Positions 925 to 64,000 of a stretch of DNA of 64,000 nucleotides are shown here, one piece after another. Each line of letters starts with the position of its first letter. The stretch's first letter is position 1. Under the pieces are notes generated by a model. It saw nothing but the letters and a program-made list of their open reading frames with translations. It did no database searches and had not been told where the DNA came from. Source of the DNA: Minutocellus sp. GHC0000111. Taxonomy: Eukaryota. The translations under genes and the position numbers were made by a program. The stretch spans positions 4,340,001 to 4,404,000 of the forward strand of contig OZ361259.1 in the NCBI GenBank assembly GCA_977018835.1, read 5' to 3'.

Positions 925-1102
925 GCACTAGGTTGGTGCTACTCTACGAGTTCGTAATTATTGGCCGACGACACACCACCACTGCTGCTGTTGTTAGTTA
1001 GTCCAGAGACCGCAGTCGACTCCGGAGTCAAACGGCCACGGCTCAGCTCCGTTGATAGTGCACGTAGATCCGATACCAGTCTCTACGACGGCAGAACAGT
1101 GC

Positions 1103-2540: not shown

Positions 2541-2560
2541 TCGAGCATTGATTGATCACC

Positions 2561-5198: not shown

Positions 5199-7913
5199 AT
5201 GTGCATGTCTCACCTTTTTCTCGCCTTGTGCAATTCCACGTGGGAACTAGAGCCCATCTTCGATGTTTCCACCTCGGTGCAGCACGTCCGACGAGCAGTC
5301 GAGTTCCCGTCGGCCACACCGAAGCCCACGGAGTTCAGATTTGAGCTCTTGACGGAGGCCGCCGCTCACAATTGGTCGGTCCTCAAGAAATACGATCGTT
5401 CTCTGAGCAGGGCACTCGAGGCGCAGGGCGGGTCGCCACTCCAACCGGGATCGGAGTTCAGAGACCTGAGTCTTCTGGAGCCGATTCTTGGCCGGCACCC
5501 GCTGTGGCCCCGCTTCCGCTCCATTCTCGACAGTGGATCCGACTGGGCCCTCGATCCGGTGAGCGACGAAAGCAGACTGGACAGCGTGATAAAGAACATC
5601 GGCCGAGGCAACCACAAATCTGCCAGGGATAGGCCGGAGGTGCTCAAGGACCAAGTTCTCGACGACGTGACCCGCGGTTTCGCCCTCCCTCTGCCAGCAA
5701 AGGTCGCGCCCCTCATTCCTGGAGCGGAGGTGGCTCCGATGGGTTTGGCAGCCCGGAGGCACTCAAGGACCAAGTTCTCGACGATGTGACCCGCGGTTTC
5801 GCCCTCCCTCTGCCAGCAAAGGTCGCGCCCCTCATTCCTGGAGCGGAGGTGGCTCCGATGGGTTTGGCAGCACAGAACACGATCAGCGAGGCTGGCGAGA
5901 TCATGCCCAAGGACCGCCTGACTCACGACCAATCCTTCGAGATCGGTGCCGCACGGTCCGTCAACAACAGAGTGCGCATGGAGGACCACCAGCCAGTGGT
6001 GTTCGGCCATGCCCTCCGGCGAGTGATCCACTGCATCGCAGACGCCCGTCACAAGCATCCCCGTGCTCCCATCCTCCTGCAGAAGGTCGATTTCAAGGCT
6101 GCGTGTCGCCGGGCCCACTTGGCTCCCAGCAAGGCCGTCAAAACGATCACCACCCTGGATGGCATTGCCCTCATGTCCCTCCGGCTGACTTTCGGCGGCC
6201 GCCCTTGCCCGAGCGAATGGTGCAACACATCCGAATCGGCGGCCGACCTGGCCAGGGCCCTCCTGCAATGCTCGGACTGGGACCCGTCAGAGCTCCATGG
6301 CCCCCAGCAGAAGCACTTGGGTCGCCCCAAGGTGGAGGGCGACGACGTGCCGTTCGCGCCGGCCCTGGACATGATCGCAACCCTTCCCGACAACAAGGAT
6401 GGCATCGTCGAGCCGCACATCGACGACCTCATCGCCGCAGCCCCTGACCTGGGCGACAACAAGGATCGGACATCCGCTGCCACCCTCCTCGCCATCCACG
6501 CGCTTGCTTGGCCGACCGGCATCCGATTGCGAGCCACTGCCCAGAGATGACCTTGCCTCCATCAAGAAGCTGCTCGCCGAGGGGACGCCTTCCGAAGCAC
6601 TGTGTCTCTTGGGGTGGGATGCTGACACCCGGCGGCTCCTACTGAGGCTCCCTTGGAGCAAGTGCCTGGCCTGGCGCGATGACATGCTTCGGCTCCTCAG
6701 AGCCCGCGGCGCCACCAGATCAGAGCTGGACACCTTGGTCGGAAGGCTAAACCACGTCGGACACATCATTCCAGCCGCACGACACTTCCTCAGCCGCCTT
6801 CGGGATCGGCTCTGGAAGGCCCGCCGCCACGGCCGCCAACGGTTCGACTCTGAGGATGCAGAAGACCTCAACCTGTGGCTCCGCTTCCTCCGAAGGGCCG
6901 CCGATGGCATGAGCATGAACCTCCTCACGCACCGTTGCCCCACCCACGAGCACATAAGTGACGCCTGCGAGCACGGCATCGGCGGATGGTCCTCATCCGG
7001 CAGAGCGTGGAGATTTGCCCTCCCCGAGGAGCCATGGGGCCGGTTCACCCTCAACTACCTGGAATTCCTCGCCGCCGTCATCGGCCCATGGATCGACCAC
7101 ATCGAGGGCAACCTACCAACCCTCTCCTGCGCACTGTCGGGGACCGACAGCACCACGGCCGAGGGATGGCTCAGGAAGTCGAACTTCGTGTCTCACGGCG
7201 AGAGGGATGCCGACGTAGCGGTCAAGCTGGCCACGGCGCGGAAACTAGCCGACATGCTCATCGAGACCAATGCCATGCTGTGCTCACAGTGGTTCCAGGG
7301 GAAGCGCAATCCGGAGGCCGACTCTCTTTCTCGTGATGCCGATCTCTCTGATGCTGACCTCACGAAATTGCTTCTATCATCTCCCGAATGTCAGCTTCCC
7401 TCAAATTTCAGGATTGCACCACCACCCAACGAGATTACTTCCTGGATTGTCTCGCAGGCGCGGACGCTGCCCGTCAGGAAGCAGTTGTTACAACGGCCAC
7501 TGCCGAGAAGCACGCTCTCGCGTGGAGCCGCTGGACTGAGTTCCTGCAGCTCATCGGGACCGGGGACGACGTCTTCCTCGACAAGGTGTCACCCCGAGAC
7601 CGAACAGTCATTCTCGGCGCCTTTGCCCACGCCGTCCGACAGGCCAGCTTTTCGGGGCCGAAGTTTTCGCGACTGGCTGCGTCGACAGTCCGAGACACCG
7701 TCTCACATGTGTGCTCGTCCTTCCGGCACAACCAGCGCAGGGACCCAGGGAAAGACGGCATCGGCCAGCCTTCATTCCTTCTACAGCGGCAGTTCCGAGG
7801 ACACAGCCAGTCCGACCCGGCCGAGCGGCCGGAGAAGGCGATCACCTGCCGGCTCCTCCGAGAGATCGCCTCCGTCAGGGAAACGGAAGAGGACCATGCA
7901 GTCGGGCAACTAG
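5199..7913 (+). pseudogene. Reverse transcriptase + RNase H (DIRS-type), frameshifted and point-mutated
   Basis: RT motifs RLTHDQS, KVDFKAA[C]RR, LRLTFGGRPCP, [H]IDD (6416-6427, expected YxDD) and LLGW. RNase H motifs SDACEHGIGG, NYLEFLAA, DSTTAEGW and N-x-ADSLSR. Split over ORFs 5199..5789, 5786..6550 and 6399..7913. Confidence 0.92.
5634..5871 (+). repeat. 119-bp tandem duplication inside the RT ORF (frameshifting)
   Basis: Copy 1 is 5634-5752 and copy 2 is 5753-5871. They differ at ggagg-TG-ctc vs ggagg-CA-ctc and at gaCgtg vs gaTgtg. Confidence 0.97.
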
Positions 7914-8676
7914 CCGTCGGCGCCTTCTTCTTCGCGATGAGGTCTCTTGCGAACACTCCAGAGTCAGCGGTGAGCGCAGGACCAAGCTGCTCCGCCTCCG
8001 CAACATCCAGTTCTACCGCGGCCGACGGCGCATGTGTCACAACGACCGGTCCCTCCTCTCAGCAGACTCTGTCTCCGTCACCTTTGAGTTCCAGAAGAAC
8101 GACGAGCGTGACGTCACGATTACGCAACACTGCACCCACGACGCCACCCTCTGCCCAGTTCGAGCTTGGGCTGCCCTTGTGAAACGAGTCCAAGGGCACC
8201 CTAGTACCAACAGCGATGCGCCGGTAAATGCCTTCGTGGTCAACGGCGTATTAAAATACATTCCTGCCACCCGAATAGTTGACAAGATCCGAGCGTCGGC
8301 CACAGTGATTGGAGAGGACGTCCTGGGCTGCCATCCCTCTGAATTCGGATCACACACTCCATTCGCAGCGGAGCAGCAATGATGGCAATGTATCTAAATG
8401 ATGTTCCCACGTACACAATCATGCTGGTAGGGCGGTGGTCCAGTGACGCCTTCCTCAAGTACATCCGTCGCCAGGTCCAAGAATTTACATCCGGAGTCTC
8501 TCCACACGCATGATCCAACGAGGTTCCTTTTCTTCAACGTGCCCCACGCACACTCGACGAGCCATCGCGAAGACCCAAGGACCCCAAATTGCCGCCAATC
8601 CTTCGCCGGCATCAACAGCATTGGCCGAAATGCCGGCTTCGGTACTCCAATGCCCCCCTTCGCCCTGTTCACCTAA
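7388..8676 (+). pseudogene. Tyrosine recombinase of the retrotransposon (frameshifted)
   Basis: Motifs AFFFAMRS-CE[H]S, FEFQKND, LCPVRAW, HSIRSGAA (8355-), GRWSSDAFLKYIR with the catalytic Tyr at 8460-8462. It overlaps the RNase H ORF, as is usual in DIRS-order elements. Confidence 0.92.
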
Positions 8677-32889: not shown

Positions 32890-35800
32890 AGAGCCAATCG
32901 TCCTCGCAGCAGATGCTGGAACGACGGGACATTTTGTCCAGAAGCCCCAATGACTGTCGTGCGATGGCCCTGTTTTCAACGTCCAACAGACAGCAATTCC
33001 TATCAGCGTCACCCTTCCGGATAGTAGCACAATGACGAACACCCACGAGGCCACGCTTCGCCTCCCTGGGGTTTCCCCATCGGCTAGCAAGGCCTATATT
33101 TTCAACAACATGGCATCATCGCTCCTGTCGATTGGGCAGCTGTGTGACGATGGATGTGTTGCCACTTTCGATAAGGATTCGGTAGTCATCGCCAAGGACA
33201 ACGCCGTCATTTTGCAAGGTAAACGAGACCCCTCAACGAAATTGTGGATGGTAGATCTTAATTGCTCGCCCACCATGTCGCCGCTCCCCGGCCCCAACGT
33301 CATCCAATGTGCTGCCAACGCCGCAATTGCCCAGGAGACGGTTCCGGAACGTGTAGCCTTTTTACATTGGTGCGCTGGCAGTCCTCAGCTATCTACCTGG
33401 TGCAAAGCAATCGATGCGGGATTTTATAGATCTTGGCCAGGCCTCACATCAAAGCTTGTACGCAAGCACATGCCACAGTCGATACCGATGATTAAAGGTC
33501 ACATAGACCAGCAGCGCAAGAACATCAGGTCGACCAAGCCCAAACGGTCGATGGCTACGCCAAAATCTCTCCCTGGGGTGGACGAAACCGAGCAGGATCT
33601 CCACCCGGCACAACACCAACAGCGCACCAACTATGTCTTTGCTGATTGTCATGACATAACGGGCCAGATCTTCTCAGATCAGCCCGGCCGTTTCTTGGTA
33701 TCGTCTATTTCTGGCCACCAGCACACAATGGTCGTCTATGACTATGACTCCAACAGCATCTTGGCCGAACCAATGAAAAGCCGATCGGGAACGGAAATGC
33801 GCCGAGCGTACCAAACTATTTTCGAATACCTCTCCAAGCGAGGATTTCGCCCAAAATTGCAACGATTGGATAATGAAGTGAGTCGAGAGCTGAAGGGGTT
33901 CATGGAAGAAAAGGATGTAGATTTTCAATTGACCCCAACGCACTCCCACCGCCGAAATGCGGCCGAACGAGCCATTCGAACCTTTAAGAATCATTTCATT
34001 GCGATTCTCTGTGGTGCCGATCCCGACTTTCCCCTCATCTTGTGGGATAAATTGCTGGAGCAGGCGGTAATGACCCTCAATTTCCTGAGAGCATCCGAAG
34101 TCAACACTCGACTATCAGCGTACGAGCAACTCAATGGCGGCTTTGATTTCAATCGCACGCCTCTCGGCCCCCTCGGATGCAAGGTCATCTTTCACGAGGT
34201 GCCCTCGGCACGCGGCTCTTGGTCCCCGCATGGCGTTGATGGGTACTATGTCGGTCCAGCCATGGAACACTACCGGTGTTACAAGGTTTGGATTGAGGAA
34301 ACTCGGGCGGAACGCACTGGTAACACACTCGTCTGGCTCCCCAAAATGATTCCGGTACCCAAAACGTCGTCGGCCGATGCAGCAATAGTCGCAGCTCATG
34401 AACTCCTGCACGCTCTACAGAATCCACATCCAGCGGCACCCCTTGCTCCCCTTCGAGACGAGCATCGTCAAGCTTTAGAAAAGCTCTCCGAGATATTCAA
34501 CAGCGTGACCCCAGCAGAATCTGCCACCTCCGCCTCTGATGAGACGATGCAGACAACCGCAGCTCCGAGGGTGCTGGAGAACGATGACGACTCCCAACGA
34601 TTCCGCCTCGGTACCATCGTCGCCAAAGTGTTTGGAGATCGCAATTACAAGGGTAGAGTCGTTGCATTTGACAAGAAGTATAAGCACTACAAAATCAAAT
34701 ACGAGGACGACGACGTAGAAGAGATGAACGAGACTGAAGTAGGCCGTCACCTTGTCTCCAACCCCAACGCTCCGTTACCTCAGCCCCAGCAACCTCCGAG
34801 GGTGGCAAAATCCTCCACATATGATGCAGCCACCACTAAAAGCCGTCGATCACGTCGATCCAACGCGCCACCTCGCTCGTCAGGTTCTTCCAACTACTAC
34901 AATCCTTTGGCTGCAGTAGACGAGCCCAACGGCGACGATGATGACAATCATGACGACGATGCAACCGTCGTAACATCCAATCAAAGTTCCAATGCCCCCA
35001 CCTCCCGTCGGCAACGTAAACGCAAGTCTCCAACGATCGATACCACTCCAACATTACCAGCTCCAGCAAAATCGACAAGCAAGTCCAAAAACCATCGACC
35101 GCCAAACCATCTCGACGACGATCATACCGTCAGCGAGGGTACATTCCACATCGGAACCCTCCCCCACGGCCATCATCTCGTCGTAGTGCCCACCACGTGG
35201 CCAACATGGCAGCTTTCTCGCCTTTACCAAACCTCCAACACTTTGCTAACGCCGTCGTCCATCCCGATGCTGGTGCAATGCTTGAACACCGCGACCTCCT
35301 CAAAACGAACATGAGGGACCAATTCATTCAAGCAAACATCGATGAAATTGGACGGCTAACGGACGGCCGAGTTGGAAACAGTGCTAGCATTCCCTCCAAC
35401 ACAATGGCTTTCGTCCACTGGTCCGAACTGCCTCGGGGGGGGAAAGCCACATGCCTCCGCATTGTCGCCGACTGTCGCTCCCATAAACCAAATCCCAATC
35501 GAGTTCGATGGACTGCAGGAGGCGACAAAATTCATTACCCTGGCACAGTCTCGACCCCGACCGCTGAAATGTTGACTGCAAAGTTACTTTTCAACAGCGT
35601 CATCTCTACAGACAACCAACGCTCGTTTCATGGGAATTGATATCAGTGACTTCTATCTCAATAGCACCATGCCAGAGCCAGAATGGATGTGGGCGCCAGT
35701 AGCTCTCATCCCCGACGAAGTCATGGAAGCCTACGACCTCCACGACAAAGTAAAGAATGGTCGAGCATTGGGTCAGAATCGATGGCGGAATGTATGGATT

Positions 35801-36977
35801 ACCCCAGGCAGGGCGCCTAGCCTACGATCAACTTGTCAAGCATCTCAAACCCCATGGCTATTTCCCTTGCAAGCGCACTGCCGGCCTTTGGAGGCACAAA
35901 ACCCGCCCAATTACCTTTTGCCTAACCGTTGACGATTTTGGAGTAAAGTATGTCGGGGGAAAGAGCATGCAGACCATCTCATTCAGGCCCTCAACTCCAA
36001 GTATAAGATCACTACCGATTGGGAAGGCCGACTTTATTGTGGTGTTCAACTCGAGTGGAACTACGAGGCCAAATGGGTGGATCTATCTATGCCTAACTAC
36101 GTCAAGGAGATGCGCCACAAGTTCCAACACGACCGCCCCTCACAGCCCGAGCATGCGCCATATCGATGGAATCGTCCGACGTATGGCCCGGGACCCCAGC
36201 TGCCAGAACCGGAAGACGACTCACCACCACTCGACGCCAAAGGCATCAACGAAATTCAACAGGTGGTGGGCAGCTCCTTGCACTGTGGTCGAGCAATTGA
36301 TTCAACAATTTTACCGGCGCTCAATAGCATCTCAGCGGAACAATCAAAAGCTACCGAGCGCACTCGACAAGATGCCAAGAAGCTTCTAGATTACCTTGCA
36401 ACCCATCCCGACGCAGTCATTCGATACGTCAAGTCAGACATGATCCTACATGTGCACATGGCGACGCCTCCTACTTATCAGCCCCGAAATCAAGAAGCAA
36501 GCTCGGAGAGGGTGCACTTCTACCTAAGCTCCCGACCTAAGCACCCGCACCGCCAGCCTGACTCAAGTGATCCCATGCCACCAATGAATGGAGCCATCCT
36601 CGTCAATGCCAATATCATCAAGCATGTAATGTCCTCTCAGCCGCTGAAGCCGAATTGGGAGGATTATTTTTCAACATGAAAGATGCAGTACCAATCCGGG
36701 CAGCACTAGAAGAAATGGGTCACCCGCAGCCCCCTACTGCTATCGTCGTTGACAACTCTACAGCATCTGGAATCGCCAATAAAACCGTCAAGCAAAGACG
36801 ATCTAAGGCTATGGACATGAGATTCTGCTGGGTCCAAGATCGCACATAGAGCAACGACAATTCCAGGTGTGCTGGCGGAAAGGAGCGCAAAATTTGGCCG
36901 ATTATTTTACAAAGCACCATCCCGCCCGCTACCATGTCGACATGCGACCAGTCTACTTACATGTAGATTCCAATTAG
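32890..36977 (+). pseudogene. Copia pol (PR-IN-Tudor-like-RT-RH), multiple frameshifts
   Basis: PR: ADAGTTGHF. IN: SDQPGRF, QRLDNE, HRRNAAERAIRTFKNHFI. RT: GMYGLPQAG, VDDFGVKY. RH: VDNSTA, SKAMDMRF, NLADYFTKHH. Confidence 0.92.
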
Positions 36978-48630: not shown

Positions 48631-50612
48631 ATGCAACTCCATCACCAGATCTTCATTGCGATTGCTCTCACCGCGTCGTTGGTATCGGCGGCGGTAGATG
48701 AGACCAACTGCATCGACAACTCGAATTATCGGAGTCCCAAGCTTGGGCTCAGTTGTGCTCAGCACAAAGGTCTCGACTGCCACGAATTTGGCACCGTTGG
48801 ATATTCCAGTGATGAAATCGCAGATCTACTTCTACAATGCCCCTCCAGCTGTGCCGTCGAAGGCTGTGCCTCCGAGGGTCTATCCAACAACGACGACAAC
48901 AAGATCCAGCAAATCATCAACGATGACGTCCAAATAAGTGTCCAAAGATCTCGGTCACTCCGTGGCCTTTTACCGATGAGCTCAACTACCACCTGCCCCG
49001 ATGACTGGGATGAATCTTGCCGCGACGATCCGAATTTCAAATCAAAGCTCCAGCTGCCTTGTTCGGGGCACGTTACCTTTGACTGCACAGTACTTGGGGC
49101 CATTGGATTCGGCCTCCAGGATATCGTTGACCTCATTTCAAATTGCCCATGTTCATGTGGCATCGAATGCGGAGCTCCAACTTCCTCACCCAGCAGCAGC
49201 CCTTCATCGAACCCAACAGTGACAGCGTCGGCGTCTCCATCTCTGTCACCAACTGCATCGCCAACCGCATACCCCACAACCCCAAGCCCCACAGCGATTC
49301 CAACAATGACACCAACCACACCGTCGCCAACCAGAAGCCCAACACAATCGCCTTCAGCAGCTCCTTCTGCCCTGAGCGAGGACAACGATAATCAAAATGT
49401 GATTGCCCAAGTGGTCACGAGTGATGAGTCATCGCAACAAGAAGAAAACAACTCTGTAATGGGATCGCTTCCATTCTCGCCTTCTGTATTCTATGGTATT
49501 GTGGCCACTGTAGCATTCGTCGCGCTTTGGTTGCGATTGTGGTCGTTACGAGGCATGTAAAGGGATCTCGCCAACAGAAGGATGACGACATGTCTCCCTC
49601 AAAGAATTCCAGACGAAACAATAAGCACTCATCTTCAAAGTCATATGCTCGATCCACCGCTGGTGGCAAGTCTCTTGTCACTGCAAAAACAAATGCGACG
49701 CGGAAGACGACATCGCTCAAAAAGAAGCATTCAAAGAGGGATATTCGTGCAAAACGCAGTACCGGCGGTAGCGCGGCTTCAAGGAGTAGCACGTCCACGT
49801 CGAGAGCCGGAAGCAAGTCAGCATCAGGCTTCAAAGCAGAATGCTTACAAACTCGGAGTTACAACACCGGCACAAGAGCTGGCAGCACCGTTAGGCATCC
49901 TGCTAGTGCAACGATTGGAGAAAATTGCGAGGACGATATCGAGGCGAACGATTCAATGACATACACTGAGTCAATGTGCACCACTAGAAAGATGCCTGCT
50001 GATATTGAAGAGGGAGCAAAACATACTTTACAAGAAGAATTAGGTGCTGCTCCATCGAATGGTTCAGGAAAACCTCAATGCGATTGGTCCATTGTCGATG
50101 CACACGGAGTAAGCGGACTTACGGATTGGTGGAATTCAAAGTCCAAGAACAAGGTCAACAGCGCCAACAACGAGAAGCCAGGACAGTCTCATTCTGGAAG
50201 TGCATGTTGGGAATTCGTTGGCGCAGCTCAAGTTGAAACGAGTCAAAATGGCGACGACGATAAGGGTGCCGCGAACGGTTCTAAGTCTTCCAACGGCGAA
50301 CGAAAGAGTCGCCGTAGTCGTCTTCCAGGGAAGAAATCGTCGAGAAGAAGTGTGGGATGGGCCTCTCAGGACGACGAAGAAGCCGAGGAGGGTGGCACCT
50401 TTGGAGAAATGCTCTCCAATGCACTGAACACTTTCAGCGGAGACGAAGGAGATGATCAGCGGCGCCATTCTGACGGTAGATCTCGAAGGTCTAGATCCAG
50501 ATCTAGGTCGAGGTCAAGATCCAAATCAAGCAAATCTCGCTCGACGAGAATGTCAAGTCGACGTAACAGAGGGTCAGAAGAAGTGGACCCGATGCACAGC
50601 TGGTTCAGCTGA
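48631..50612 (+). pseudogene. Type I membrane protein with two Cys-rich repeats, PT-rich stalk and basic low-complexity tail; frameshift in the TM segment
   Basis: Signal peptide, two C.D...(Y/F).S.L.L.C..H...DC...G..G.......L...CP.SC repeats, and SPT/PT repeats. The TM segment is split between ORFs 48631..49560 and 49527..50612. Confidence 0.7.
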
Positions 50613-50911
50613 AGCACATGAAGATCCAAATGTTGGTGTAGGGGCCCTCTACCATGGTAGTACTGATTAGAATTGTTCATAATTTATGTAAGAAATGAAA
50701 AGGAAGACTCTTTATTAGCAATTAGACACAAGGTAGAAAGGCTGGCAGTTGCTCCTTTTATTGCTTGATTTCTGTGATTTGATTTTGCAATTTTCTTCCT
50801 CCGCGGAAAGAAAAAGAGGAGAAAGAAGGAAAAAGAAGGAAAAGGGAGCGAAATGATAAAAGCATCTCTGCTCGGCGAGTCTACATGTCACTACCGGTAA
50901 CTTCATGTTTA

Positions 50912-53299
50912 CTACATGTGTTGGTAATGAATGATTACTAATTTACGAAACATCCCCAAAAGACCCCCATTGGACCTCGGCCATGCATTGTCTGGTAATT
51001 TCTGGGCATTCGCTCCCACTCCTAGCACCTGCGCTGTCAACCTGCTTTTGGTGAGATTCTTATTCATCTTGCTTGCCAACCACCGACGGACTTCAAGATC
51101 TAAAGCCTTTCCTTTTGCCACTAGTTCGGCCTCATCGATCTCGGCTGCTCTAAACACATCATCCTGATCTTTTGTGACAGCTGCATCAACCACACGCATT
51201 GCCAACTTATATTTTGTCTTTTCATTGCGATCAAAAGCCCTGGGAAGTATTGCCAGCGGCGGAGGCATGGATTCATGCGACGACCCTGACTTCAGCTTTC
51301 CAGATCGAGCCAATTCTATTACTATTTCGCTCATGAGCGGCCACTTATTCTTCTTTTTGCCCCCAGCGCTGCTGACAGTTGACAACTGCTCCGTCGTTGG
51401 TAGCGGTGGAGGCCGAAGAGCCGTCGGTAGCGGTGGCGCTCCTCCAACCATTCTCCTTGCTATGGCAACCGGCGATACTGCAATGGCAGATATTGCGGTG
51501 CCGATAATGCCAGAACCTCCAGCGGTGCGCTGCCGCACGTTTCGGCCAGGGGATCGCGGTGGGGATGGCTCTCTTCGTCGGATGGTGCCACCGGCAGGTC
51601 TACTGGTACCAGCAACCGCCGAATCAACACCACCAGAAGCAATCAATGGCACCGATGTTCCATTTAGCGCCCTTGCATCCGATTTTTGTAGCTGAGTCTC
51701 AAGGTGACATATTGTTCTTGCGTTGGTTGCTGCCAAAGCCTTCAAATCGGCAATCTCCTTCCGCAAATCTGATACTAAACGATTGTTTTCAGCTACCACA
51801 GTAGCAAGCTCCTCCTCAGCGGATGAATACGGTGCATTGATGGCCTTGAAATCATCTGCCACCTTCCTTGACCACCCCTTCAATTGAGACAGATCAATAC
51901 CGAGCTCGTCCCCCACATTCATCATCCGACGAACGGCAGGGCCTGCAACTCCAAGAAAAGACAGCTTCGTCGAAAAATTCATAATGTTGGTGGCCAGCAC
52001 CTCCCGTACCAGCTGCCGTAGCCTCCCTCCAGCCTTGAAATCAGGCATTGTCATTGGATATAATTTGTCTGCAAACCGATCCAAAAGAGCCATGTCGTCA
52101 GGCAAAGTGCTGATGGCAATGAGCCGAGGAGGACGGTGGGACTTCCGAGGAGAGGGATGGCCAGCAAGAGACCTCATTGGCACATGTTGCATCGCCCGCC
52201 GAGATAGCACGTAGTGCCTGGTGTTATCAGCAGGAGCGTGGCCTGATCGTGCCGTGAGCTCTGGATGATTCACCGACGGATCTTCGTGAAGGTGGGTAGT
52301 GCCGCCGTATCGCATGCTTCGACCAGATATGCTGTCCCGTATTGAATCCGGCAGATCATCTCGCAAGGTTTCGGTGAGGGTCTTGGAAGTCCAGGAATCG
52401 CTTCGAGCCTGGCACATCGGTACAACAAAGGCCTGGAGAAAACCTATGTTGCCAGAGGAGTTGCAGGTACGAGAGAGGCCACCATCGACGCTCCAGTGGT
52501 CACCAAGGGCATCAAATACACAAGTCTCCCACCGGTCATAATCTGTACAGAAGGTAGTCGGCCTGGTCGTGCCATTCTTCAAGTCCTTCCAGTCAGCAGC
52601 AGCACAATTACCGACGGGATCATATGTCATGCCCTGGTAGTTGAGATATTTCACCTCCCCGGACCGGCCATCGGCGGCATATGTCAAGTTGAGAGCAAGG
52701 CGTCGCTGGTGCTTGTCGCCGAGCTTGCTGGTTTTCAGTAGCTTGCGATTGATGGTGACCATGTCGGGAACATCGTCGGCAAATGGACTGGTGCTGACAC
52801 CGTCGTGTCCTTCAATAACACCAGCATCGGGGTTGAGGCGAACGATGCCGATCTTGCCGGGTACTTCGTCGACACCAGATGTGCCACGGACGCTGTCTCT
52901 CTCCAGCTTCTTGACGAGCGCGCCCTTGGAGAGGGTGAACCAGGTCTCGTCGGTCCAGTCGACGTGGCGGCCGAACCGGTCCTTCAGGTACTCCTTGATG
53001 AGGCCGAAGCCGTTGCCGACGCCGTCAGCCTTGAGGAGCTTGTCCCGGTTGTTCATGTACCTCGGAGGGTTCGTCGACATGTACTCGGCCCAAGAGCACA
53101 TAATTGATTCGATGTCGCCGGGCGATGCGACGTCTTCGGGCGTCAAGTCGTCGACAAAGGGAAGACCGATATGCTGAAGATATGCATTGAATCGGGTATT
53201 GTACGATGATAACTCGGGTGGTGCCCTTGGGACTGCCGTGCGGCGAAGGCCGGCGGTGGCGTTCGTGGCGGCGGTAGCAGCAGTAGTAGCGGCGGCCAT
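50912..53299 (-). CDS. Tyrosine recombinase, Crypton-like (DNA transposon type), apparently intact
   Basis: Catalytic order R (DGRSGEVK), K (WKDLKNG), xxxR (GRSMRYG), H (ARSGH), Y (NTRHY). Long C-terminal extension with a coiled coil. No RT nearby. Confidence 0.8.
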   Translation of the reverse strand: MAAATTAATAATNATAGLRRTAVPRAPPELSSYNTRFNAYLQHIGLPFVDDLTPEDVASPGDIESIMCSWAEYMSTNPPRYMNNRDKLLKADGVGNGFGLIKEYLKDRFGRHVDWTDETWFTLSKGALVKKLERDSVRGTSGVDEVPGKIGIVRLNPDAGVIEGHDGVSTSPFADDVPDMVTINRKLLKTSKLGDKHQRRLALNLTYAADGRSGEVKYLNYQGMTYDPVGNCAAADWKDLKNGTTRPTTFCTDYDRWETCVFDALGDHWSVDGGLSRTCNSSGNIGFLQAFVVPMCQARSDSWTSKTLTETLRDDLPDSIRDSISGRSMRYGGTTHLHEDPSVNHPELTARSGHAPADNTRHYVLSRRAMQHVPMRSLAGHPSPRKSHRPPRLIAISTLPDDMALLDRFADKLYPMTMPDFKAGGRLRQLVREVLATNIMNFSTKLSFLGVAGPAVRRMMNVGDELGIDLSQLKGWSRKVADDFKAINAPYSSAEEELATVVAENNRLVSDLRKEIADLKALAATNARTICHLETQLQKSDARALNGTSVPLIASGGVDSAVAGTSRPAGGTIRRREPSPPRSPGRNVRQRTAGGSGIIGTAISAIAVSPVAIARRMVGGAPPLPTALRPPPLPTTEQLSTVSSAGGKKKNKWPLMSEIVIELARSGKLKSGSSHESMPPPLAILPRAFDRNEKTKYKLAMRVVDAAVTKDQDDVFRAAEIDEAELVAKGKALDLEVRRWLASKMNKNLTKSRLTAQVLGVGANAQKLPDNAWPRSNGGLLGMFRKLVIIHYQHM

Positions 53300-53422
53300 G
53301 GTGTCAAAAGACTGCGAGCCAAACTTTACCCAGGAATCCCCCCGAAACACCCGGGTAAAGTTCGGAAGCAAGGCGCAAAAAGATCCTCCAAGCAGACAAC
53401 GAGCGAACATTACAATTATTTT

Positions 53423-53495
53423 TGTGGAATATTCAACAGAAGTAAATGCACGAAAAAGAGAATGGATGTCATTTATCAATGTTGAATATTCAACA
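53423..53495. promoter_or_regulatory. Two copies of palindrome TGTTGAATATTCAACA in the divergent YR/cargo spacer
   Basis: 53423-53438 (TGTGGAATATTCAACA) and 53480-53495 (perfect). Further copies at 56356-56371 and 58074-58089. The function is inferred. Confidence 0.6.
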
Positions 53496-53586
53496 AAAAT
53501 ATATATATCCAAAGACTCGTGGTTTCCTACCGTCTAAACTCACTAACACTTTTCCGTGCTTTTGAACTTAATACAAAACACACAGA

Positions 53587-56500
53587 GGCTCGTACGAAAT
53601 CGTCAAAGCCACGGAAGGTAGCCCTGAGTCGCGTACCAAATGAAATAAAAATATGCTTGCAAGTTATCTATGAAGCATGTGGCTTCACGAAGGAAGAAGC
53701 GCAGAATCAATGTATTACAGCGAAGCAAGGGACACCAGAAACACATGCGTGGAAAGAGGCCTTGCCTTGCTTTTAATTTATTCCCAAGCAAAAAGATTAA
53801 AACGAAGGTCAAAGAAGGAGGTAAATTGTACGTCAGGGACACCCCTGGCGATGTTGTAGGGCCGCACATGGCATATGAGGCAATATTGGAGGAAACAAGT
53901 AAGAAGAAGAGCGATAATGAGTTGCCTATGTTGCTGAAATACATTATCCATGAAGTTGGATCGAGGCTAGCGAAATTTGAAGATGATGATTATTTCCCTA
54001 AGGAGGGATTTATGAAGGCAATGAAAAATGTGGTCGCGGTGCAAATGAGTAATAAGGACTACTCGGACGTTAGATGCAAGGTGGTGACGACAAATGAGTA
54101 TAGTGGTGATGAATTAGTCTCGTGGCTACGCCGAGTCTATGAGCTAGACGAAGAGTATGACTTGTCCGACGAAGGATTCGAGAGGACGATTAAAACAGTC
54201 AGAGGTTATCGTAAAGGGATGGCTCGAGGTGGAATGGCATGTCCCAAAGAGTGGGCAGAGAGGGTGGTTTCAATTAATATTGCAAAAAAGGACCCGAATA
54301 TAACTCCGAACGAAGTGGATAAAGCACTGCAGAAGATTGCTGAAAAGAAGAAGAAAGATATGACGGTGACCGACGATGAGGACAAAGGAGATGCCGAGGA
54401 CGACCAGAGCGACAGAGTAGAGAGATCCGCGGAAGAAGAGGAAATCTGGAACTAGATGAAGACGAGGAAACAAACAATGAGGAAGAAGGAGGAAATAATG
54501 GATCAGTAGAGGATGGATCAGACGAGGACGGAAAAGAAGAGGCAGAAGATACATTGGAAGGGAAAAAACAGGTATGTATGTATGTATGAAAAGATGATTG
54601 TTAATTAGCATTTGAAGGGTTCTAAAGATGAACCGAGCTACCAGCACTAATGATTTGTGTACTTTATTTCCGTAAGCAGGCTGGATCAGAAAAGGACAAG
54701 GGATCGAAGAAAAAGGGCAAGGAAGCCGAGGATGATGCAGATGAATACAACAGGCAAGCACCTTAAATAGCTCCGAGGGGTATAAAGATGGGATCGATAG
54801 CCGCGGTCTCCTTCTTCCGGTATGGTTTTCAGGACCAAGAATCGGTAATTGGAATAGTCGAAGGAAGTAATCCAAGAACACACCCAACAATTGAAGATAG
54901 AATCCCGATACAAAATGGTTTGGTTATTCCGGGAGGTGATGTTCAGAATGACGTACGAAAGGAAACCATTGACACAGTGTACATGTGGTCGGTGAAGAAA
55001 GGTTCGAAGCTGAATCAGATGATAGAGGATGGACAAATATACGAAAAGATCTTTGAAGGCGTCTACATTTCTATAGACAGGAGAAAGTCTGGAGATGTAG
55101 AGAATAAATATCTGGAAGAGCACCGAGTGTACTATGATGTCCCGAACATTGCGATGGTAATGGATGCTAGAGACTATGCAGGAGGAGAAGCATCCTTTCA
55201 GAATAACGATGAAGCGTTCAAAAGAACCAAGGAAAGGAAAATGAAAGAAAGACTTACGCTGGAAGGGTTCGATGGATTTATGGAAAATATGACCAAGGTA
55301 CAGTTCCACGAACTAGCATCGATAAGTAGAGCCCATGAAACATCGAAGGGTGTCTTACTCACAGAGGACGAAGAGAGTGGAATCCTAGAAAACTATGAAA
55401 AGGACGACGATGAGGAGGAGGAGGCGATACTCAGGATTGCAACCCTTAGGAAACTTGAAAGGGTTGTTCGAGAAAGGTCTAGTAGGAGACTTGCAAAGAT
55501 CGCTGGTTATGCAGAGGCATTCTCCGTTTCGTCACTGGGAGAAGAATGGAGTTCAAGAATTGAGGTAAGTAATGAGAAAAAGATGAGATGTAGAAAAATG
55601 AAATGTACAATGCCCCTCGAGAGCTGAATCTTAATCATTGCCACTTTTCTCTTATTTTGCAGTCTGTCCAAATTAATGGTGCAAAACGAACAGTAGAGGC
55701 GAGAAAATTGATACTAGGTTACCCAACAGACCCCAAGAGTCAATTATTAATGAGCAACGAAGAAATGGACAAGATTAATCCGACACGAATCACAGCAACG
55801 ATGCCTATCGCAACAAATGAGTGGAATGTTGCGTGGTACCCTTCCATGACCCCGGAACAAATGTGCGCAATAGGAACCGCTGCGACGAATGCCCAAGCGA
55901 CGGAAGCAGGGTTGTCAGTTATGACATTAATCGTGACTCTCCTTGAGCGAGCGAGGGGTGTAGCGGCAAACATCGGAGGAATAGGAAGAGAAGAATTCTG
56001 GAATGGAGATGACAAGGCGCTGAAGAAGTATGAAAAAGTCCTCCAAGCAGCTGTCAAGATAGTTATGAAAGCCGCAGAAGGAGTAGAGAAGAGCGAATGT
56101 CACCCCTTGAGATCGATGGTTGATGACCACGCGAAAGCTAGCGGGATGAATACAAGAGTGAAGACTTTAGGGTGCACAGCCCAGAGATTTGAGACGCTAG
56201 CAAAGTTGGAGTCAATACCGTACTGGGAAAAGTACACGAAAGAAGATCCACTAGGACAATACTTCGAGAAGAAGGTGAATATGAAAGGGAAGAAATTCGT
56301 GATGATTGGTGAGTACTGGAAACTAGAAAAATGCAAGAATTGTGATATTTACTTTTGTTGAATATACAACAAAGATATATGAGCAAAATTTGAATATGGA
56401 ACTGTACTAACAATCCCGTCGAATTGAATGACATCACATGACCAACCATTCACCGCCTAAAGGGAATTATGACTCCAATTATGGAAAGCATTGGGTCGCG

Positions 56501-58025
56501 AAGGGTCTACCGACACAGAGAAAGCCATATGCTTATCAGATAACAGGATTCAGCATTGTAGCGGATGTATTAACAGCGGCTATGCTAGTAGATGGAGGGA
56601 TCAATGCGACGATGGCCGCAGCTCAGATTAGAAATGTAGATTTGAGGACTTTGTATCAGATGTTTGTTCATGCTAATAATCTCTGTTCTATCCCAGCGGA
56701 CTTAATGGCGAAAGACATGTATGAGATAATGGACACGCCATTACAAAGAGATGGAAGAGCGAAGACCTTCAGATATTGCTCCGGGAAATACCAAGCAACA
56801 GCAAGATCATTAATATTCAAAGAGACCTGCAAAATGATAGCAGACCATGGAAACGACAACTCGATGCGGCCAACAAGAGAAGCATTGGCTAGTTCTGCGC
56901 CTAATAGCACCAGGAGGAATACTGGATAGTGGAAATGAACTGGATCTCGGAGGACTAGAGAAGAGTGATGAGGAAACAGAACAGGTAATATGCCAAGGAC
57001 ATCCGTTAGATGACTTGACGTTTGAAGCCATCAGTCCTCTGAAAAACATGAATACCTTGATCGAACGAGTACTATTCTTTCATTATTCCTTTGTGGCGAA
57101 TGAATACACGGTGAGACCAGAAAGATTCAATTTAGATAGAGTCCTACTGTACGACAGAGAAGAAGAAGGATCGCCAGTGCCGCAAGAGGAGAAAACTAGA
57201 AACCATACGGTAACGAGAGGAGGTAAGGAATTTGAAATATTATTCAACTCAACAGGAGCAATTAAGGTGAGCGAGCACGTAAATGAGGATTCACAAAGAG
57301 TGATGAGCTTAGTACCAAAAGAAATAATGCTCCGATGCGTCATGAACAATATGGTAATGGGAAAACCAAAAGAAGGAGAGGCGTTCGTAGCACAAACGGA
57401 CTTCATCCAGAGATATGTGAAAGTAAAAACGAAGGAAGGAGGCATAGAACTTAAGTCAGCGACGCCACAGAAGAGGATGACAGCAGCGCAACGCAAGGAT
57501 TCATGCATTGGAAATATGACGAGCGACTTTGAAAAGATAACAGACCTACTCGAAGAAGCAATGGATCAGGATGGGAGCACTAAAACAAAAACACTTGAAA
57601 GAGTCGCAGCTATAGCCGAAGCAGGAAAGAAGAGGGGACAAGACGAGATAAGCCAAGCAACGCCACAAGGAAAGACTCGAAATAAAAGCAACACGCCAGA
57701 GTCAACGAATGACGACGGAGATACTCAAAAAAGAAAAGCCACAGGAGATGACGAGGAAGAACAAAAGAGAGGTCAAGATGAGAATAACCATGATACGCCG
57801 CAGAAAAAGATGAATGAGAAAAGCAACGAGAAGGAGCCAGAGACTCCCGAAAGAGATACTGGAAATGAAGGAGAGGACAGAGTATCGGTACGAGGACCTG
57901 AGACAAGACGAAGCATGAGATCGAGAAAAGGGCATGATGAAGACACGGGGGAAGAGAAAAGTAAAAAATCAGAAGGCAGCGGAAGGAGGGCAAAGAAAGC
58001 AAGAAAAAAAGATAAGAATAATTAA
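53587..58025 (+). pseudogene. Large multi-exon orphan gene (or genes), Lys/Glu-rich, with frameshifts and a stop
   Basis: Chained ORFs 53670..54455, 54788..55627, 55603..56361, 56438..56929 and 56847..58025. Intron-like segments start GTATGT (~54572), GTAAGT (~55565) and GTGAGT (~56309). No recognisable domain. Confidence 0.55.
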
Positions 58026-58119
58026 TATATATGTATATTATACTAGCAAAATTAAAGAAGAGATATCTACAAATGTTGAATATTCCACAAAGATAAATTG
58101 AGCGAGGTACATGAAATCT

Positions 58120-59555
58120 TCAGAGCTGACCGTAATCATCAGGACCAGAAGGATCGAAATGAGGACCAGATCGAAAGCATGATCTGAGGTAACGAAAGAC
58201 GGGAGACGAGGAGGCAAAAACATCGCTAGGGAGATGGGGGTTGGAGTCAAAATTAGATCTGAAAACGTAAGCAGCGGATCCAACGTTGGCATCACGTACA
58301 TAGAGCATGGGGATTTCATCGGAACAGATTGACTCTCTGTCAGCTGCATGGATAACACGTAAGACGTCGACTTGCTCAAGCTGGTTCACAGCAAGAAAAG
58401 ATGCTATGAAATGGCAAAAAGAAGCATGAATAGGACCTGCAGATGCCACGCCGGGGCCGTGAGGTTCGGAAGCTAATGATTGGACAAAACGTGCAAATTC
58501 AGGATGCCGAAAGACCGTGCGAAACGTCGGGACACATGACATTACAAAAGGTAAAACAGAACCACTCCAATCAATGTCCGACCCAGAACGACGAAGACGA
58601 AAAGAGCTATGAGGTCGACGGAAGAAAAATATCCCGTCAATGCGATAAACAGTACGACGGAAGATATCAATAATAAGACTCCGATCGACGAGGCTCGACG
58701 AAGAAGAGAGACAACCAAAAGACCGAGGAGATTCGAGAGACCGAGATACAGGATCGACGACAGCGGAAGATACAAATATAGAACGAGACAGACAAAGATC
58801 GACGATGAAGGAGTGAAATTCATTCGAGAGAACGATATCAACGAATGACGGGGACGAGAGATGGGTAGAGGCGCATTGGCGACAGTGAGAGGACAACCAC
58901 AAACGACGAAAGAATTCCTTGCCGAGGGGAGAAGCCGCAAACGAATCCATGGTAGGGAAACAGAAGAGACAAGAAACACCACGACGACACCGCCACGAGC
59001 GCAACGAAGACGACGATGTACAATTACAATGGAGCTCACACGGCGCACCGATGCAGGATACGATCGACGGCCAAGATTTGAACGCGCACCTGTGAGCAGA
59101 AAGTCTCACTACTTTCCATATGACGTCATTATATGTCTCGGCCACATAGGATTGTTGAGCATTCAACATTAGTAAATAATGCAGGAAGAGGCATCGACTA
59201 TAAACAAGGAACGTATAAAAAGTAAAGAGAGTTATGCTTAAGCAGTAAGAAAAGAATTGTAGCACGAAGTGCCAATTTATAATAATAAAAAAAAAGAAGA
59301 GGAATAGCTAGCAGCTCATCACGGACACACGGCAACAGGAAGGAGCTGGTCCTTTTTTGGTAGAGCCGCTCGACCCAAAAACTGGACATTCGTCTTTCCG
59401 TCGTCCGTGTTTCCAACGCGGCGAAGTACGGGAAAAGTCGCAATTTCCTGCCGGACCAACTTTTCCCCCTGAAACATGGCAAAAAGACTTGATCGAGCCG
59501 GCCTGCCTCGCTTACGTCCCCACTCTAGTTCACATTCATTCAAGGTTGGGGACAT
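58120..59555 (-). CDS. Possible orphan gene (ORF 58120..59265 plus possible first exon from ATG 59555)
   Basis: 381-aa ORF with a Cys cluster. The strong strand skew lowers stop-codon frequency, so it may be spurious. Confidence 0.35.
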
Positions 59556-60491
59556 CGAAGGTCCGGCTCGAAAATTCCGCACACAGGCTGAGCTATCGAG
59601 GGGGAAAAATCACGCACAAAAAACGATGACGACGCACGAAAATTTGCTCTCATTGGCGGCCGATTCGGGGGCGGATGCACGAACAAAAACCACAACAATC
59701 AACCATACAAACATTTTCATACATGTCTTGGGCGTGTGTCTCTGCATTTCTGGGTGGTGGATGGATTGGGCGGCTGTGGCTCTCTCACGGCATCACTTCT
59801 CATCCGCGGCCCTTTTTCGCGTGCTCGAACACAGGTTGATTGTTTTGATTTGTGTTTTCTCATACAATAGCATGCCAATCAAGCTGAAACTTTTGCATGC
59901 GTAGCGCAATGGCATCGGCCAGCCTCGGGAATGCCGCCCACATCTTGCCTGCCTTGCAAATGTGCAGCGGCCAGAGAAAGAGAGAGCAACCAAACAGCAG
60001 CCCCGCCAGGGCACCCGGGCCATCTGCTGTAGCCCCTCTCTCCCACCTCTGCAATGAACACCAACAATGAACACTCAGGACAGAAAGCACGACATGCCAG
60101 CCAAGCTACGTAGAAACAGTGCACAGGCTACGAACCAGCGGATGGGAACCCACCCCTCCGATGCCATTTGGTCTGTCCGTCGCCACACCACCGAGACCAC
60201 ATGAGCAGCGGAGCTCTTGTAGTAGTAGCTTGCGGTGGGAAGCCCCTGATGTGGCAATCCGGGTTTCTTTGGCGGTACCGCGCGCGGCCCCCGCGCCGGC
60301 GGCGGACCAGCGCAAACCGCCATGTTGCAATGTTCGAATGTAGTAGAGGAATCGAATCCTATGAAAACCGCTGATTGCTGATCATCCACATGTGCATCAC
60401 TGTCACTGCCCGAGCACCTTCAACATTCCAGAGTTCTGAGGCCACCGCAGCGGAGAGGAACGGCTGATCAGAACAATTCTTGTACACAGGC

Positions 60492-61913
60492 ATGATCACC
60501 ATCGATTCTGATGTGAGAGCTGTGCTATCGAATGAGGTTGAAGAGAGCCAACCGGCACAACCAGTATGCTCACAGCCCAACACGCCCGTCACCGTCGGAA
60601 TCGACACATGGAGCCTCTACAATTATGCGTACAACTTCCTCGAATCTTCCTTTTTGATTTACAGTTTTGCTGATCTGCGCAAATACGCGCGGGAGGGGCT
60701 CTTTGACGAGCAAAGCTGTGAGGCAATATTGACGGTACCGATACGAATCGAAACGGCTATTGAGCTGCTATGGAAACATCGGGATCTTCTTCAGAAAAAA
60801 TGGGGAGAGTTCGACACGCAACTATTCGTTGACTCAATGGATAGTGTGGAAAAAAGGATGGAAGTGGCTGCATGGGCCACTGGATATAGAGGATATTTGG
60901 CAGAAGAGCTTGGCGAGAAGGCGGGCGGTATTCAGTATTTCCACGACGAAAATGAGAAAGAGCCCACACAATGTGTCATTGTTGCAAATGTCCTTGCCAA
61001 GACTCTCTCCGTCGTCTTTCGTGGAACAAAGACTCTAAATGACGTTCAGGTGGACGCGAAGATGGCAATGAAAAACATAAATAACCCCCTCGCTGATGTC
61101 GAAGGACTCTCAGAGAAATTTCGGTTGCATCGCGGTTTTTCGGGATTTCTTTATAAAAAGGCCATCCAGGAGGTGGAAGGGGAACGTCGAAAGTGGAATG
61201 GGACAAGTACAAGAGGAGGGACCAAATGCCAAGAAATTTTGAGCAAGACGCTGGAAATATTGCAACAATTTCCTGACTACCATTTATGTGTGACAGGCCA
61301 TTCCATGGGAGGCGCTTTGGCAACACTGTTTGCTTTTGAGCTATCGGCGCTCCGGCACAGAGATGAGGAATTGATTCGCCACCCCATTACATGCGTTGCG
61401 GTTGCTTCTCCAATGCTAGGCGACAACAATTTTCGCAAAACTTTTCAATTTCTCGAGAGGGAAGGTCATCTGCAGTGTTTGAGGGTGGAGAACGATTTTG
61501 ATATCGTTCCACTTTACCCTTGGACTTCACTTAGCTTTCTTGGTGTGCCCTTCTCTCCCTTCTTTCCATCCGTGCGTTATCGACACGTTGGGGTGCAACT
61601 AAAAATTCACGCAACAAAAGAGACTTTTGAGTTATCGTATCCAAGATATCGAACGGGTGTTATTCTCTTTTTGATTGATCTCTGGTCGACAATCAAAAGA
61701 TTGTGTTGGCTGGCTCTGTGCTGTCTTTTCGTTTCAGCTAGAGAAGGTGTCAATCATCATTGTGGCGAATACAGAAAACGGCTCGTGGACAATGCTGAAA
61801 CCCTAGGACAGCTTACTCTGGCAAATGTTTATGAAAGAATACGTAAAGGTGAATCTGGTCTCCTCGAGACTTCGGGCCAACTTCGATTGAAAGCAGTGGA
61901 GCCGAGAATCTAG
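60492..61913 (+). CDS. Class 3 (fungal-type) lipase
   Basis: VVFRGT, LHRGF, VTGHSMGGALA, RVENDFDIVP and YRHVG. Confidence 0.88.
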   Translation: MITIDSDVRAVLSNEVEESQPAQPVCSQPNTPVTVGIDTWSLYNYAYNFLESSFLIYSFADLRKYAREGLFDEQSCEAILTVPIRIETAIELLWKHRDLLQKKWGEFDTQLFVDSMDSVEKRMEVAAWATGYRGYLAEELGEKAGGIQYFHDENEKEPTQCVIVANVLAKTLSVVFRGTKTLNDVQVDAKMAMKNINNPLADVEGLSEKFRLHRGFSGFLYKKAIQEVEGERRKWNGTSTRGGTKCQEILSKTLEILQQFPDYHLCVTGHSMGGALATLFAFELSALRHRDEELIRHPITCVAVASPMLGDNNFRKTFQFLEREGHLQCLRVENDFDIVPLYPWTSLSFLGVPFSPFFPSVRYRHVGVQLKIHATKETFELSYPRYRTGVILFLIDLWSTIKRLCWLALCCLFVSAREGVNHHCGEYRKRLVDNAETLGQLTLANVYERIRKGESGLLETSGQLRLKAVEPRI

Positions 61914-61972
61914 TCCATCTTTTAACTAGCTACGTGGTCACCAATATATCACTATTATGCCCTAGCTAGACA

Positions 61973-64000
<2,028 letters not shown>

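What the first reader, a model, noticed from the sequence alone, without database searches (positions are those of the whole stretch)
50880..59730. Crypton-like tyrosine recombinase heading ~6 kb of orphan cargo: a candidate cargo-carrying YR DNA element
Seen: an intact ~795-aa YR gene (R-K-xxxR-H-Y) with no RT, transcribed divergently from a large intron-containing orphan gene, and a possible convergent orphan ORF. The DNA is much more A-rich than the flanking genes. TACATGTC occurs at 50882 and 59720, near the apparent borders, but similar motifs are common in this genome. Known: CryptonS elements occur in stramenopiles and are usually compact, while YR 'captain + cargo' giants (Starships) are fungal. 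Inference: this may be an undescribed multi-gene YR transposon or an integrated virus/plasmid-like element of diatoms.
Basis: partly seen in the sequence, partly recalled or inferred. Interest (0 to 1): 0.8.

Follow-up and report, generated by a model that had tools for sequence, protein, structure and literature searches.

The report
Lone Crypton beside palindrome-studded orphan element
The recombinase gene and its supposed cargo are likely two different multi-copy elements that lie side by side here: a small jumping gene with a tyrosine recombinase, and a piece of an unclassified element that carries five copies of a 34-base palindrome, likely protein-binding sites.

Summary
The YR is real: the model matches Ndc10, Flp and Cre (Z 13.7-14.7), and R212, K241, R330, H354 and Y363 are conserved. 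The claimed 9-kb captain-plus-cargo unit is not supported. The YR part (50801-53381) has about 5 times the contig depth of the 'cargo', other copies of each have other neighbours, and a 72%-identical relative stands alone in 2.7 kb between 11-bp direct repeats. TACATGTC marks no border; the right-hand copy lies inside a separate 640-bp repeat. The YR belongs to a large Crypton-like family without a Pfam hit that has K/R in place of the H of H-x-x-R, unlike CryptonS. The 'cargo' is a truncated piece (53374-60221) of another young element, about 14 copies in the assembly. It is purine-rich and holds a spliced orphan gene (about 1,400 aa, 3 introns shown by RNA contigs) and a convergent ORF. They are most likely binding sites for a dimeric protein. 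Use as recombination sites is possible, but no reshuffled copy was seen.

The parts
50801..53381 (-). Element A: remnant of a young ~2.7-kb Crypton-like YR DNA transposon; about 40 bp or more of the 3' end lost at 50801, and about 100 bp missing at 53313/53314
   Evidence: Contig depth 4,714-5,753 versus flanks 171-272 in X1/X3; other copies continue past 50801 and differ at 53313; N-terminal extensions of P0013 and P0018 read through the missing parts
50939..53299 (-). Tyrosine recombinase gene (786 aa in other copies; stop lost here, read through to 50912): CB+CAT domains at about aa 25-385, helical extension, coiled coil at about 490-550, conserved C-terminal domain at about 655-770
   Evidence: AF2 pLDDT 91.6 for aa 25-490; Foldseek Cre E 1.3e-4; VIA Z 14.7 Ndc10, 14.5 Flp, 13.7 Cre; conservation
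53322..53362 (.). Inverted pair of subterminal GGGTAAAGTT motifs of element A (likely YR-binding sites); the same motif lies just beyond 50801 in other copies, and GGGAAAGTT lies at both ends of the L001 relative
   Evidence: (loose ends); the binding role is inferred, and the 10-mer alone is not above chance in the window
53374..53381 (.). Junction A|B; 7-8-bp shared core (CGCAAAA), resembling the TTTTGC core of the L001 direct repeat
   Evidence: Element-B contigs continue left of 53374 with non-YR DNA in X1, X6 (23 nt) and X13 (742 nt); P0018 shares sequence up to about 53381 and then has another flank
53374..60221 (+). Element B fragment: purine-rich, multicopy and unclassified; continues on both sides in other copies
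   Evidence: Depth 1,055-1,460 in X1/X3; X13 contigs run on 742 nt left of 53374 and 255+ nt right of 60221; four ORF clusters on 12 Mb-scale contigs
53414..53447 (.). Palindrome s1 (half-site ATTTA-N4-TGTTG-AAT)
53471..53504 (.). Palindrome s2; its ATG (53479) opens exon 1 in intact copies
   Evidence: P0060, P0064, P0065, P0066 read through it in frame
53479..58025 (+). Orphan gene, 4 exons, about 1,400 aa when intact (estimate); frameshifted in this copy; start codon inferred
   Evidence: RNA joints, splice borders, spliced P0077, 62%-identical homolog P0109 of exon 4; no Pfam, PHROG, NCBIfam, PDB or Atlas assignment
56347..56380 (.). Palindrome s3, inside intron 3 (56309-56462)
58065..58098 (.). 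Palindrome s4, between the converging 3' ends
58120..59169 (-). Convergent orphan ORF, 349 aa from the ATG inside s5 (start inferred)
   Evidence: (P0106, P0101 start there); RNA contig 58086-59057 in X6
59144..59177 (.). Palindrome s5; on the - strand it carries the ATG of the convergent ORF
59343..59980 (.). Element C: ~640-bp non-coding high-copy insert, absent from most copies of B; contains the TACATGTC at 59720
   Evidence: Joints 59342->59981/60001 at depth 848/977 and depth up to about 12,700 inside; P0105 and P0108 read across the empty site

Best explanation
The region is likely a pile-up of three separate repeats, not one cargo-carrying element: a young stand-alone Crypton-type tyrosine-recombinase transposon (50801-53381), a truncated piece of a second multicopy element with five 34-bp palindromes and two orphan genes (53374-60221), and a 640-bp insert within that piece. 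The Crypton likely moves as others are proposed to: its YR binds the subterminal GGG(T/A)AAGTT motifs, recombines the short terminal cores to excise a circle, and integrates at a core-like target. Here that target was likely CGCAAAA, 33 bp from the first palindrome of one copy of element B. Later deletions or a rearrangement likely removed B's left part, the Crypton's 3' tip and B's right part. The palindromes are most likely operator-type sites for a dimeric DNA-binding protein, probably encoded by B itself (my odds about 0.5; recombination sites about 0.2; host factor or other about 0.3). Shown: fold, residues, copy differences, junctions, splicing, palindromes. Inferred: excision as a circle, order of events, the role of the palindromes.
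For: Contig depth in three DNA-type runs: YR 4,714-4,997 / B 1,055-1,182 / flanks 171-219 (X1); 5,621-5,753 / 1,206-1,460 / 217-272 (X3); 124 / 21-59 / 7-10 (X13). The tool warns that depth is not a copy number, but cluster sizes agree: 72 YR members versus 13, 20, 15 and 12 for B's ORFs. Of the 11 contig lengths listed for 15 of the 72 YR members, 2 are among the 12 B-bearing contigs. B contigs continue left of 53374 with non-YR DNA in 3 of 4 runs (X1, X6, X13); X3's contig ends 7 nt past it. P0018 shows a YR copy with a different upstream flank. L001 holds a 72%-identical YR alone between an 11-bp direct repeat at 2647 and 5366, with an ARM-repeat gene outside it. Composition differs: purines 0.50 in A versus 0.64 in B. 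Palindromes: 5 matches, all in B, 0 in 100 shuffles; outer arms match in 9 of 10 half-sites, P 5e-15. Most fold weakly as single strands (-0.1 to -4.7 kcal/mol), which fits double-strand binding. Gene order across s2 (5 of 5 proteins that span it), s5 (5 of 5) and s4 (1 of 1) is the same as in the window.
Against: No whole genome was available, so no full copy of A or B and no empty site was read directly. The left-flank contig leaves the window at 50801 and runs 2,480 nt (X3) or 1,266 nt (X1) into DNA that does not rejoin 60222-64000, so the locus is not a clean insertion and a mis-join in the assembly is not excluded. Only 15 of 72 YR members were listed, with their longest contig only, so further A+B copies are not excluded. 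The contig break 23 nt left of 53374 in X1 and X6 would also fit several B copies carrying A. No binding protein for the palindromes was identified.
Confidence: 0.75

Rival explanations
1. Element B is a site-specific recombination array (integron- or shufflon-like): the 34-bp palindromes are loxP/dif-type sites whose symmetric centre allows inversion or excision of modules, swapping exons or start codons, with a YR acting in trans or encoded in the missing part of B.
For: 13-8-13 (or 14-6-14) geometry with two-lobed arms. s2 and s5 each supply an ATG, giving both ORFs the same N-terminus MLNxQQxY. s3 is hidden in an intron. A further s3-like/s2-like pair flanked by 255+ nt of other DNA occurs at B-like depth in 3 of 3 DNA-type runs and not in the RNA run. 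One X13 contig has a deletion ending at 56361, the edge of s3's 6-bp centre.
Against: Gene order is the same in every copy that could be read across a site (5 of 5 at s2, 5 of 5 at s5, 1 of 1 at s4). X1's contig runs unbroken across s1-s3. The X13 deletion is a single case with 5 inserted bases and an unrelated left end, and palindromes are fragile anyway. The neighbouring YR has its own, different terminal motif.
Confidence: 0.15
2. One reading: the YR is a captain that mobilises the orphan genes as one 9-kb unit, while lone YR copies are its autonomous core.
For: The two parts are adjacent and divergently transcribed. The contig break near 53374 allows more than one joined copy. Both parts are young (3 substitutions in 2.5 kb; 10 in 4.4 kb against the majority contigs).
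Against: A's own terminal motifs lie between YR and cargo, not around both. The majority B contigs have another left flank. Neither outer junction (50801, 60221) is an element-A end, and the YR points out of the supposed element. Composition and depth differ.
Confidence: 0.08
3. Element B is a fragment of an endogenous virus- or plasmid-like element, and the palindromes are its promoter or 3'-end signals.
For: Strong purine strand bias across genes of both orientations; orphan genes; sites at gene starts and between converging 3' ends; an RNA contig ends inside s4 (58086).
Against: No relative in IMG/VR contigs, in phage records or in PHROGs at E<0.04. No capsid, packaging ATPase or polymerase in the 6.8 kb seen. 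Three spliceosomal introns. Contig ends cannot show RNA ends.
Confidence: 0.15

Closest known systems
CryptonS (oomycetes, Phaeodactylum; Kojima & Jurka 2011, PMC3212892)
   Same: YR-only DNA element of about 3 kb, multicopy, short terminal direct repeats, C-terminal extension without GCR1_C; 47 of 103 family members have W at the H/W position, as CryptonS does.
   Different: All 10 CryptonS rows seen in supplement 4 have the box-II histidine and R-x-x-W. None of 104 family members has that H (K 62, R 35, T 5, Q 1, V 1), and the window protein has H354. The L001 direct repeat is 11 bp and not TATGG.
CryptonF / Ndc10 (NDC10_II)
   Same: Best structural match is Ndc10 (Z 14.7, rmsd 4.2, 241 aligned); Atlas feature hits 0.93-0.97 to Ndc10-type clusters.
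   Different: No GCR1_C or NDC10_II Pfam hit at E<=1; 6-10% identity to Ndc10.
Starships (fungal captain + cargo; PMC11162782)
   Same: A YR lying next to unrelated genes.
   Different: No DUF3435 hit; the YR does not sit at the 5' end reading inward; YR and neighbouring genes do not share outer direct repeats or copy number.
loxP / dif / FRT-type YR sites and integron or shufflon arrays (geometry recalled; PMC3212892 gives 11-13-bp arms with a 6-8-bp spacer)
   Same: Element B's palindromes have arms of 13-14 bp around a 6-8-bp centre and are repeated through the element.
   Different: The centre is itself symmetric, the arms contain a variable 4-bp gap, the sites do not bound single-ORF cassettes, and no rearranged copy was seen.

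Membership tests
Crypton (YR DNA transposon, broad sense) | Encodes a tyrosine recombinase with an intact active site and no RT | tested here: met
   Fold; R212 101/104, K241 104/104, R330 102/104, H/W354 96/103, Y363 102/103; no RT family hit in the ORFs scanned
Crypton (YR DNA transposon, broad sense) | [quoted passage not shown] | tested here: inconclusive
   Met in relative L001 (11 bp at 2647 and 5366); the window copy has lost its 3' tip, so only one core is visible
Crypton (YR DNA transposon, broad sense) | Dispersed near-identical copies | tested here: met
   72 cluster members; one identical protein on 10 contigs; 11 contig lengths among the 15 listed
Crypton (YR DNA transposon, broad sense) | Excision as a circle | not testable with these tools
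   Only assembled contigs were available; no end-to-end joint of A is listed
CryptonS | Box-II histidine (H-x-x-R/K) and R-x-x-W, as in the published alignment | tested here: not met
   10 of 10 CryptonS rows seen have both; the window protein has R327 and H354, and 0 of 104 relatives have H at 327
CryptonS | 5-7-bp terminal repeats, mostly TATGG | tested here: not met
   The L001 repeat is AATTTTTGCCA; paper passages and supplement rows
CryptonS | Placement in the CryptonS clade on a YR tree | not tested
   No CryptonS sequence was available to the alignment tools
CryptonF | C-terminal GCR1_C domain | tested here: not met
   No GCR1_C hit for the window protein or for 39 of the 149 other listed relatives
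Starship | [quoted passage not shown] | tested here: not met
   No DUF3435 Pfam hit; only an Atlas feature hit at 0.92 with 138 shared features; the YR reads outward
Starship | Captain and cargo move together between direct repeats | tested here: not met
   Different depth, cluster size and flanks
Integron/shufflon-like array (element B) | Repeated recombination-type sites | tested here: inconclusive
   Five significant palindromes with YR-like geometry; activity not shown
Integron/shufflon-like array (element B) | Modules differ in order or presence between copies | tested here: not met
   Same order in 5 of 5 (s2), 5 of 5 (s5) and 1 of 1 (s4) proteins spanning a site; rare variants are not visible in contigs
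Endogenous virus / PLV (element B) | Capsid, packaging ATPase or viral polymerase genes | tested here: inconclusive
   None recognised in the fragment; the rest of B could not be read

The most novel reading that the evidence does not exclude
Element B is a eukaryotic mobile element built as a recombination array: lox-like 34-bp sites placed at start codons, inside an intron and between genes let a tyrosine recombinase invert or excise modules and so rewire a large spliced orphan protein, a eukaryotic counterpart of bacterial shufflons and integrons.
Probability: 0.15. Interest if true: 0.9.

Novelty: new variant of a known kind. Interest (0 to 1): 0.5.

Why it matters
Element A is a recently amplified, apparently intact member of a large YR family (488 representatives at 50% identity with E<=0.001) that Pfam does not recognise and that has K/R for the canonical box-II histidine. 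Its ends and likely binding motifs can be named, so the untested circle model of Crypton transposition could be tested directly, and it could be a recombinase tool in algae. Element B is an unclassified, expressed, multicopy element with an unusual internal array of long palindromes. If these are recombination sites it would be a new kind of eukaryotic programmed rearrangement; if they are operators, it is still an undescribed element. The captain-plus-cargo idea itself does not hold.

Tried and rejected
Whole-genome search: no genome is held. First AF2 model with 7 sequences: the catalytic domain had pLDDT < 50, Foldseek gave no match at E<=0.001, and VIA's best was Z 7.8 to Cre's N-terminal domain; the C-terminal domain was barely tested. 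Sequence searches of PDB with the YR, A1 and A6 gave only coiled-coil or low-complexity hits. Orphan protein: no longer homologs for exon 2 (weak evidence); Atlas best 0.82, below the credible range; no Pfam, NCBIfam or PDB hit below E 0.03 and no PHROG hit below E 0.04; nothing in viral contigs, phages or prokaryote genomes. A YxxKY-like stretch at P0077 aa 446 has no accompanying HxH in the proteins scanned, so a HUH/Helitron/Replitron reading was dropped. YR relatives in viral or prokaryote contigs: none. The exact 16-mer palindrome has 87 hits in IMG/VR; of the 88 loci scanned, 1 had a second near-copy and none matched the full 34-mer pattern, so these were read as chance. Rfam: nothing. 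A heat-shock-element reading (GAAnnTTC in 3 of 5 sites, 29 in the window) does not explain the outer arms and is kept only as a minor option. Earlier scan notes: nothing in 4 look-ups. No complex prediction was run, as no binding claim is made.
Full report
Observation. The 795-aa ORF at 53299-50912 (-) is there. It has no Pfam hit, but ESM Atlas features point to Ndc10/Crypton-type clusters (0.95-0.97, commonest taxa Oomycota and Bacillariophyta). A profile search found 488 representatives at E<=0.001. I aligned the window domain with 104 relatives: 96 of the 150 listed hits plus 8 close homologs, chosen for covering the domain. R212, K241, R330, H/W354 and Y363 are nearly invariant, and the usual box-II histidine is replaced by K or R. 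AlphaFold with this alignment gave pLDDT 91.6 for aa 25-490, matching Cre, Flp, lambda Int, XerH and Ndc10. The YR call is therefore shown.

The unit is not one element. Laying four runs on 49800-61000 and one on 49800-64000 split the region into blocks. Flanks have depth about 170-270, 50801-53313 about 5,000-5,700, 53374-59144 about 1,050-1,460, and 59363-59935 up to about 12,700 (X1/X3). The tool warns that contig depth is not a copy number, but the protein clusters agree. The YR cluster has 72 members. The four orphan-ORF clusters have 13, 20, 15 and 12 members on 12 contigs of 0.7-5.3 Mb, two of them twice, and all 10 contigs listed for the convergent ORF also carry the large gene. Two of the 11 contig lengths listed for YR members are among those 12; only 15 of the 72 members were listed. 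Contigs of the orphan block continue left of 53374 with DNA that is not the YR in X1, X6 and X13. Protein P0018 shows a YR copy with about 100 extra bases at 53313 and a different flank beyond about 53381. P0013 shows that the element runs about 40 bases or more past 50801. The single metagenome relative, L001 (72% identical, 1 of 109 pattern matches), lies alone in 2.73 kb between an 11-bp direct repeat, with related subterminal motifs at both ends and an ARM-repeat gene outside. TACATGT is common in the window and marks no border. The 59720 copy lies in a 640-bp insert that most copies lack (joint 59342->59981; P0105 and P0108).

No clean empty site was found. The left-flank contig leaves the window at 50801 and runs 2,480 nt (X3) without rejoining 60222-64000. 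Either host DNA was lost or rearranged here, or the assembly is mis-joined; this is open.

Element B. The block 53374-60221 is 64% purine on the + strand, even under the minus-strand ORF, against 50% for the YR and 50-53% for the flanks. RNA-contig joints in X6 show three introns, and the Logan protein P0077 is the spliced product of exons 2-4. The four ORFs thus make one gene of about 1,400 aa (my estimate), frameshifted in this copy. A 62%-identical homolog of exon 4 exists, so the protein is conserved, but no library assigned it. In X13 the contigs run on beyond both ends, so the window holds a truncated copy.

The palindromes. Five imperfect 34-bp palindromes occur only in B. The half-site is ATTTA-N4-TGTTG-AAT, with 7 positions invariant in 10 half-sites and outer arms far above chance. 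s1 and s2 lie before the large gene, s3 in intron 3, s4 between the converging ends, and s5 at the start of the convergent ORF. s2 and s5 each hold an in-frame ATG, giving both ORFs the start MLNxQQxY; whether these are the true starts is inferred. One contig in each of the three DNA-type runs carries another s3-like plus s2-like pair within DNA absent from the window, at B-like depth, so B likely has more sites. Singly they fold weakly (s1+s2 together fold at -18.6 kcal/mol, as any two copies of a palindrome would).

Mechanism. For A, I infer the Crypton model described in PMC3212892 (excision as a circle through short terminal repeats, then integration), with GGG(T/A)AAGTT as binding sites and a TTTTGC-type core. 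It likely inserted into one B copy at CGCAAAA, and later deletions trimmed both. For B, the two-lobed symmetric sites most simply are operators of a dimeric protein, probably B-encoded. The geometry also fits YR recombination sites, and one X13 contig has a deletion ending at the edge of s3's centre. Against that, every copy readable across a site keeps the window's order, so I give recombination about 0.15-0.2.

Comparison with known systems. A works like a Crypton and meets the broad definition. It fails the CryptonS motif and terminus tests and the CryptonF domain test, and a tree was not built. It is not a Starship. B fits no family tested. Papers: PMC3212892 (abstract, outline, passages, supplement rows and part of supplement 4), PMC13465315 (passages), PMC11162782 (passages); all others as search listings only. 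These seven searches showed no description of a palindrome-array element or a cargo-carrying YR element in diatoms. Repbase and subscription journals were not searched, and the rest of the PMC3212892 supplements was not read, so the family of A may already have a name there.

Verdict. Interest 0.5.

Noticed in passing
window 958-8382: GC-rich block with ORFs that look by eye like RT, RNase H and a YR (DIRS/Ngaro-like retroelement, frameshifted); four ORFs gave no Pfam hit at E<=0.01, so the label is from recall of motifs.
   Followed up: partly
window 32954-36679: ORFs resembling a broken Copia integrase/RT/RNase H by eye.
   Followed up: no
window 59430-59467: The 640-bp insert holds an inverted pair resembling element A's subterminal motif (GGGAAAAGTC ... 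AACTTTTCCC); it may be a non-autonomous Crypton-type derivative, but no terminal repeat was found and the 10-mer is not above chance.
   Followed up: partly
P0013: One YR copy's 3' end is fused directly to residue 464 of another YR copy, suggesting nested or tandem insertion.
   Followed up: partly
P0005, P0038, P0039: A related lineage has an in-frame internal deletion (after about aa 367 up to about 695) that keeps the YR core and the C-terminal tip.
   Followed up: no
window 49800-50801 versus 60395-64000: The left flank differs from run X3 by 12 substitutions and 7 gap letters in 1 kb, the right flank by 2 substitutions in 3.6 kb: a haplotype switch or rearrangement breakpoint may lie at this locus.
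   Followed up: partly
window-wide: TACATGT is strongly over-represented (23 versus 3.55 expected), clustered in intergenic stretches; likely a common genomic motif.
   Followed up: no
L001 183-2519: ARM-repeat protein gene with an acidic N-terminus, divergent from the YR and outside its direct repeat.
   Followed up: partly
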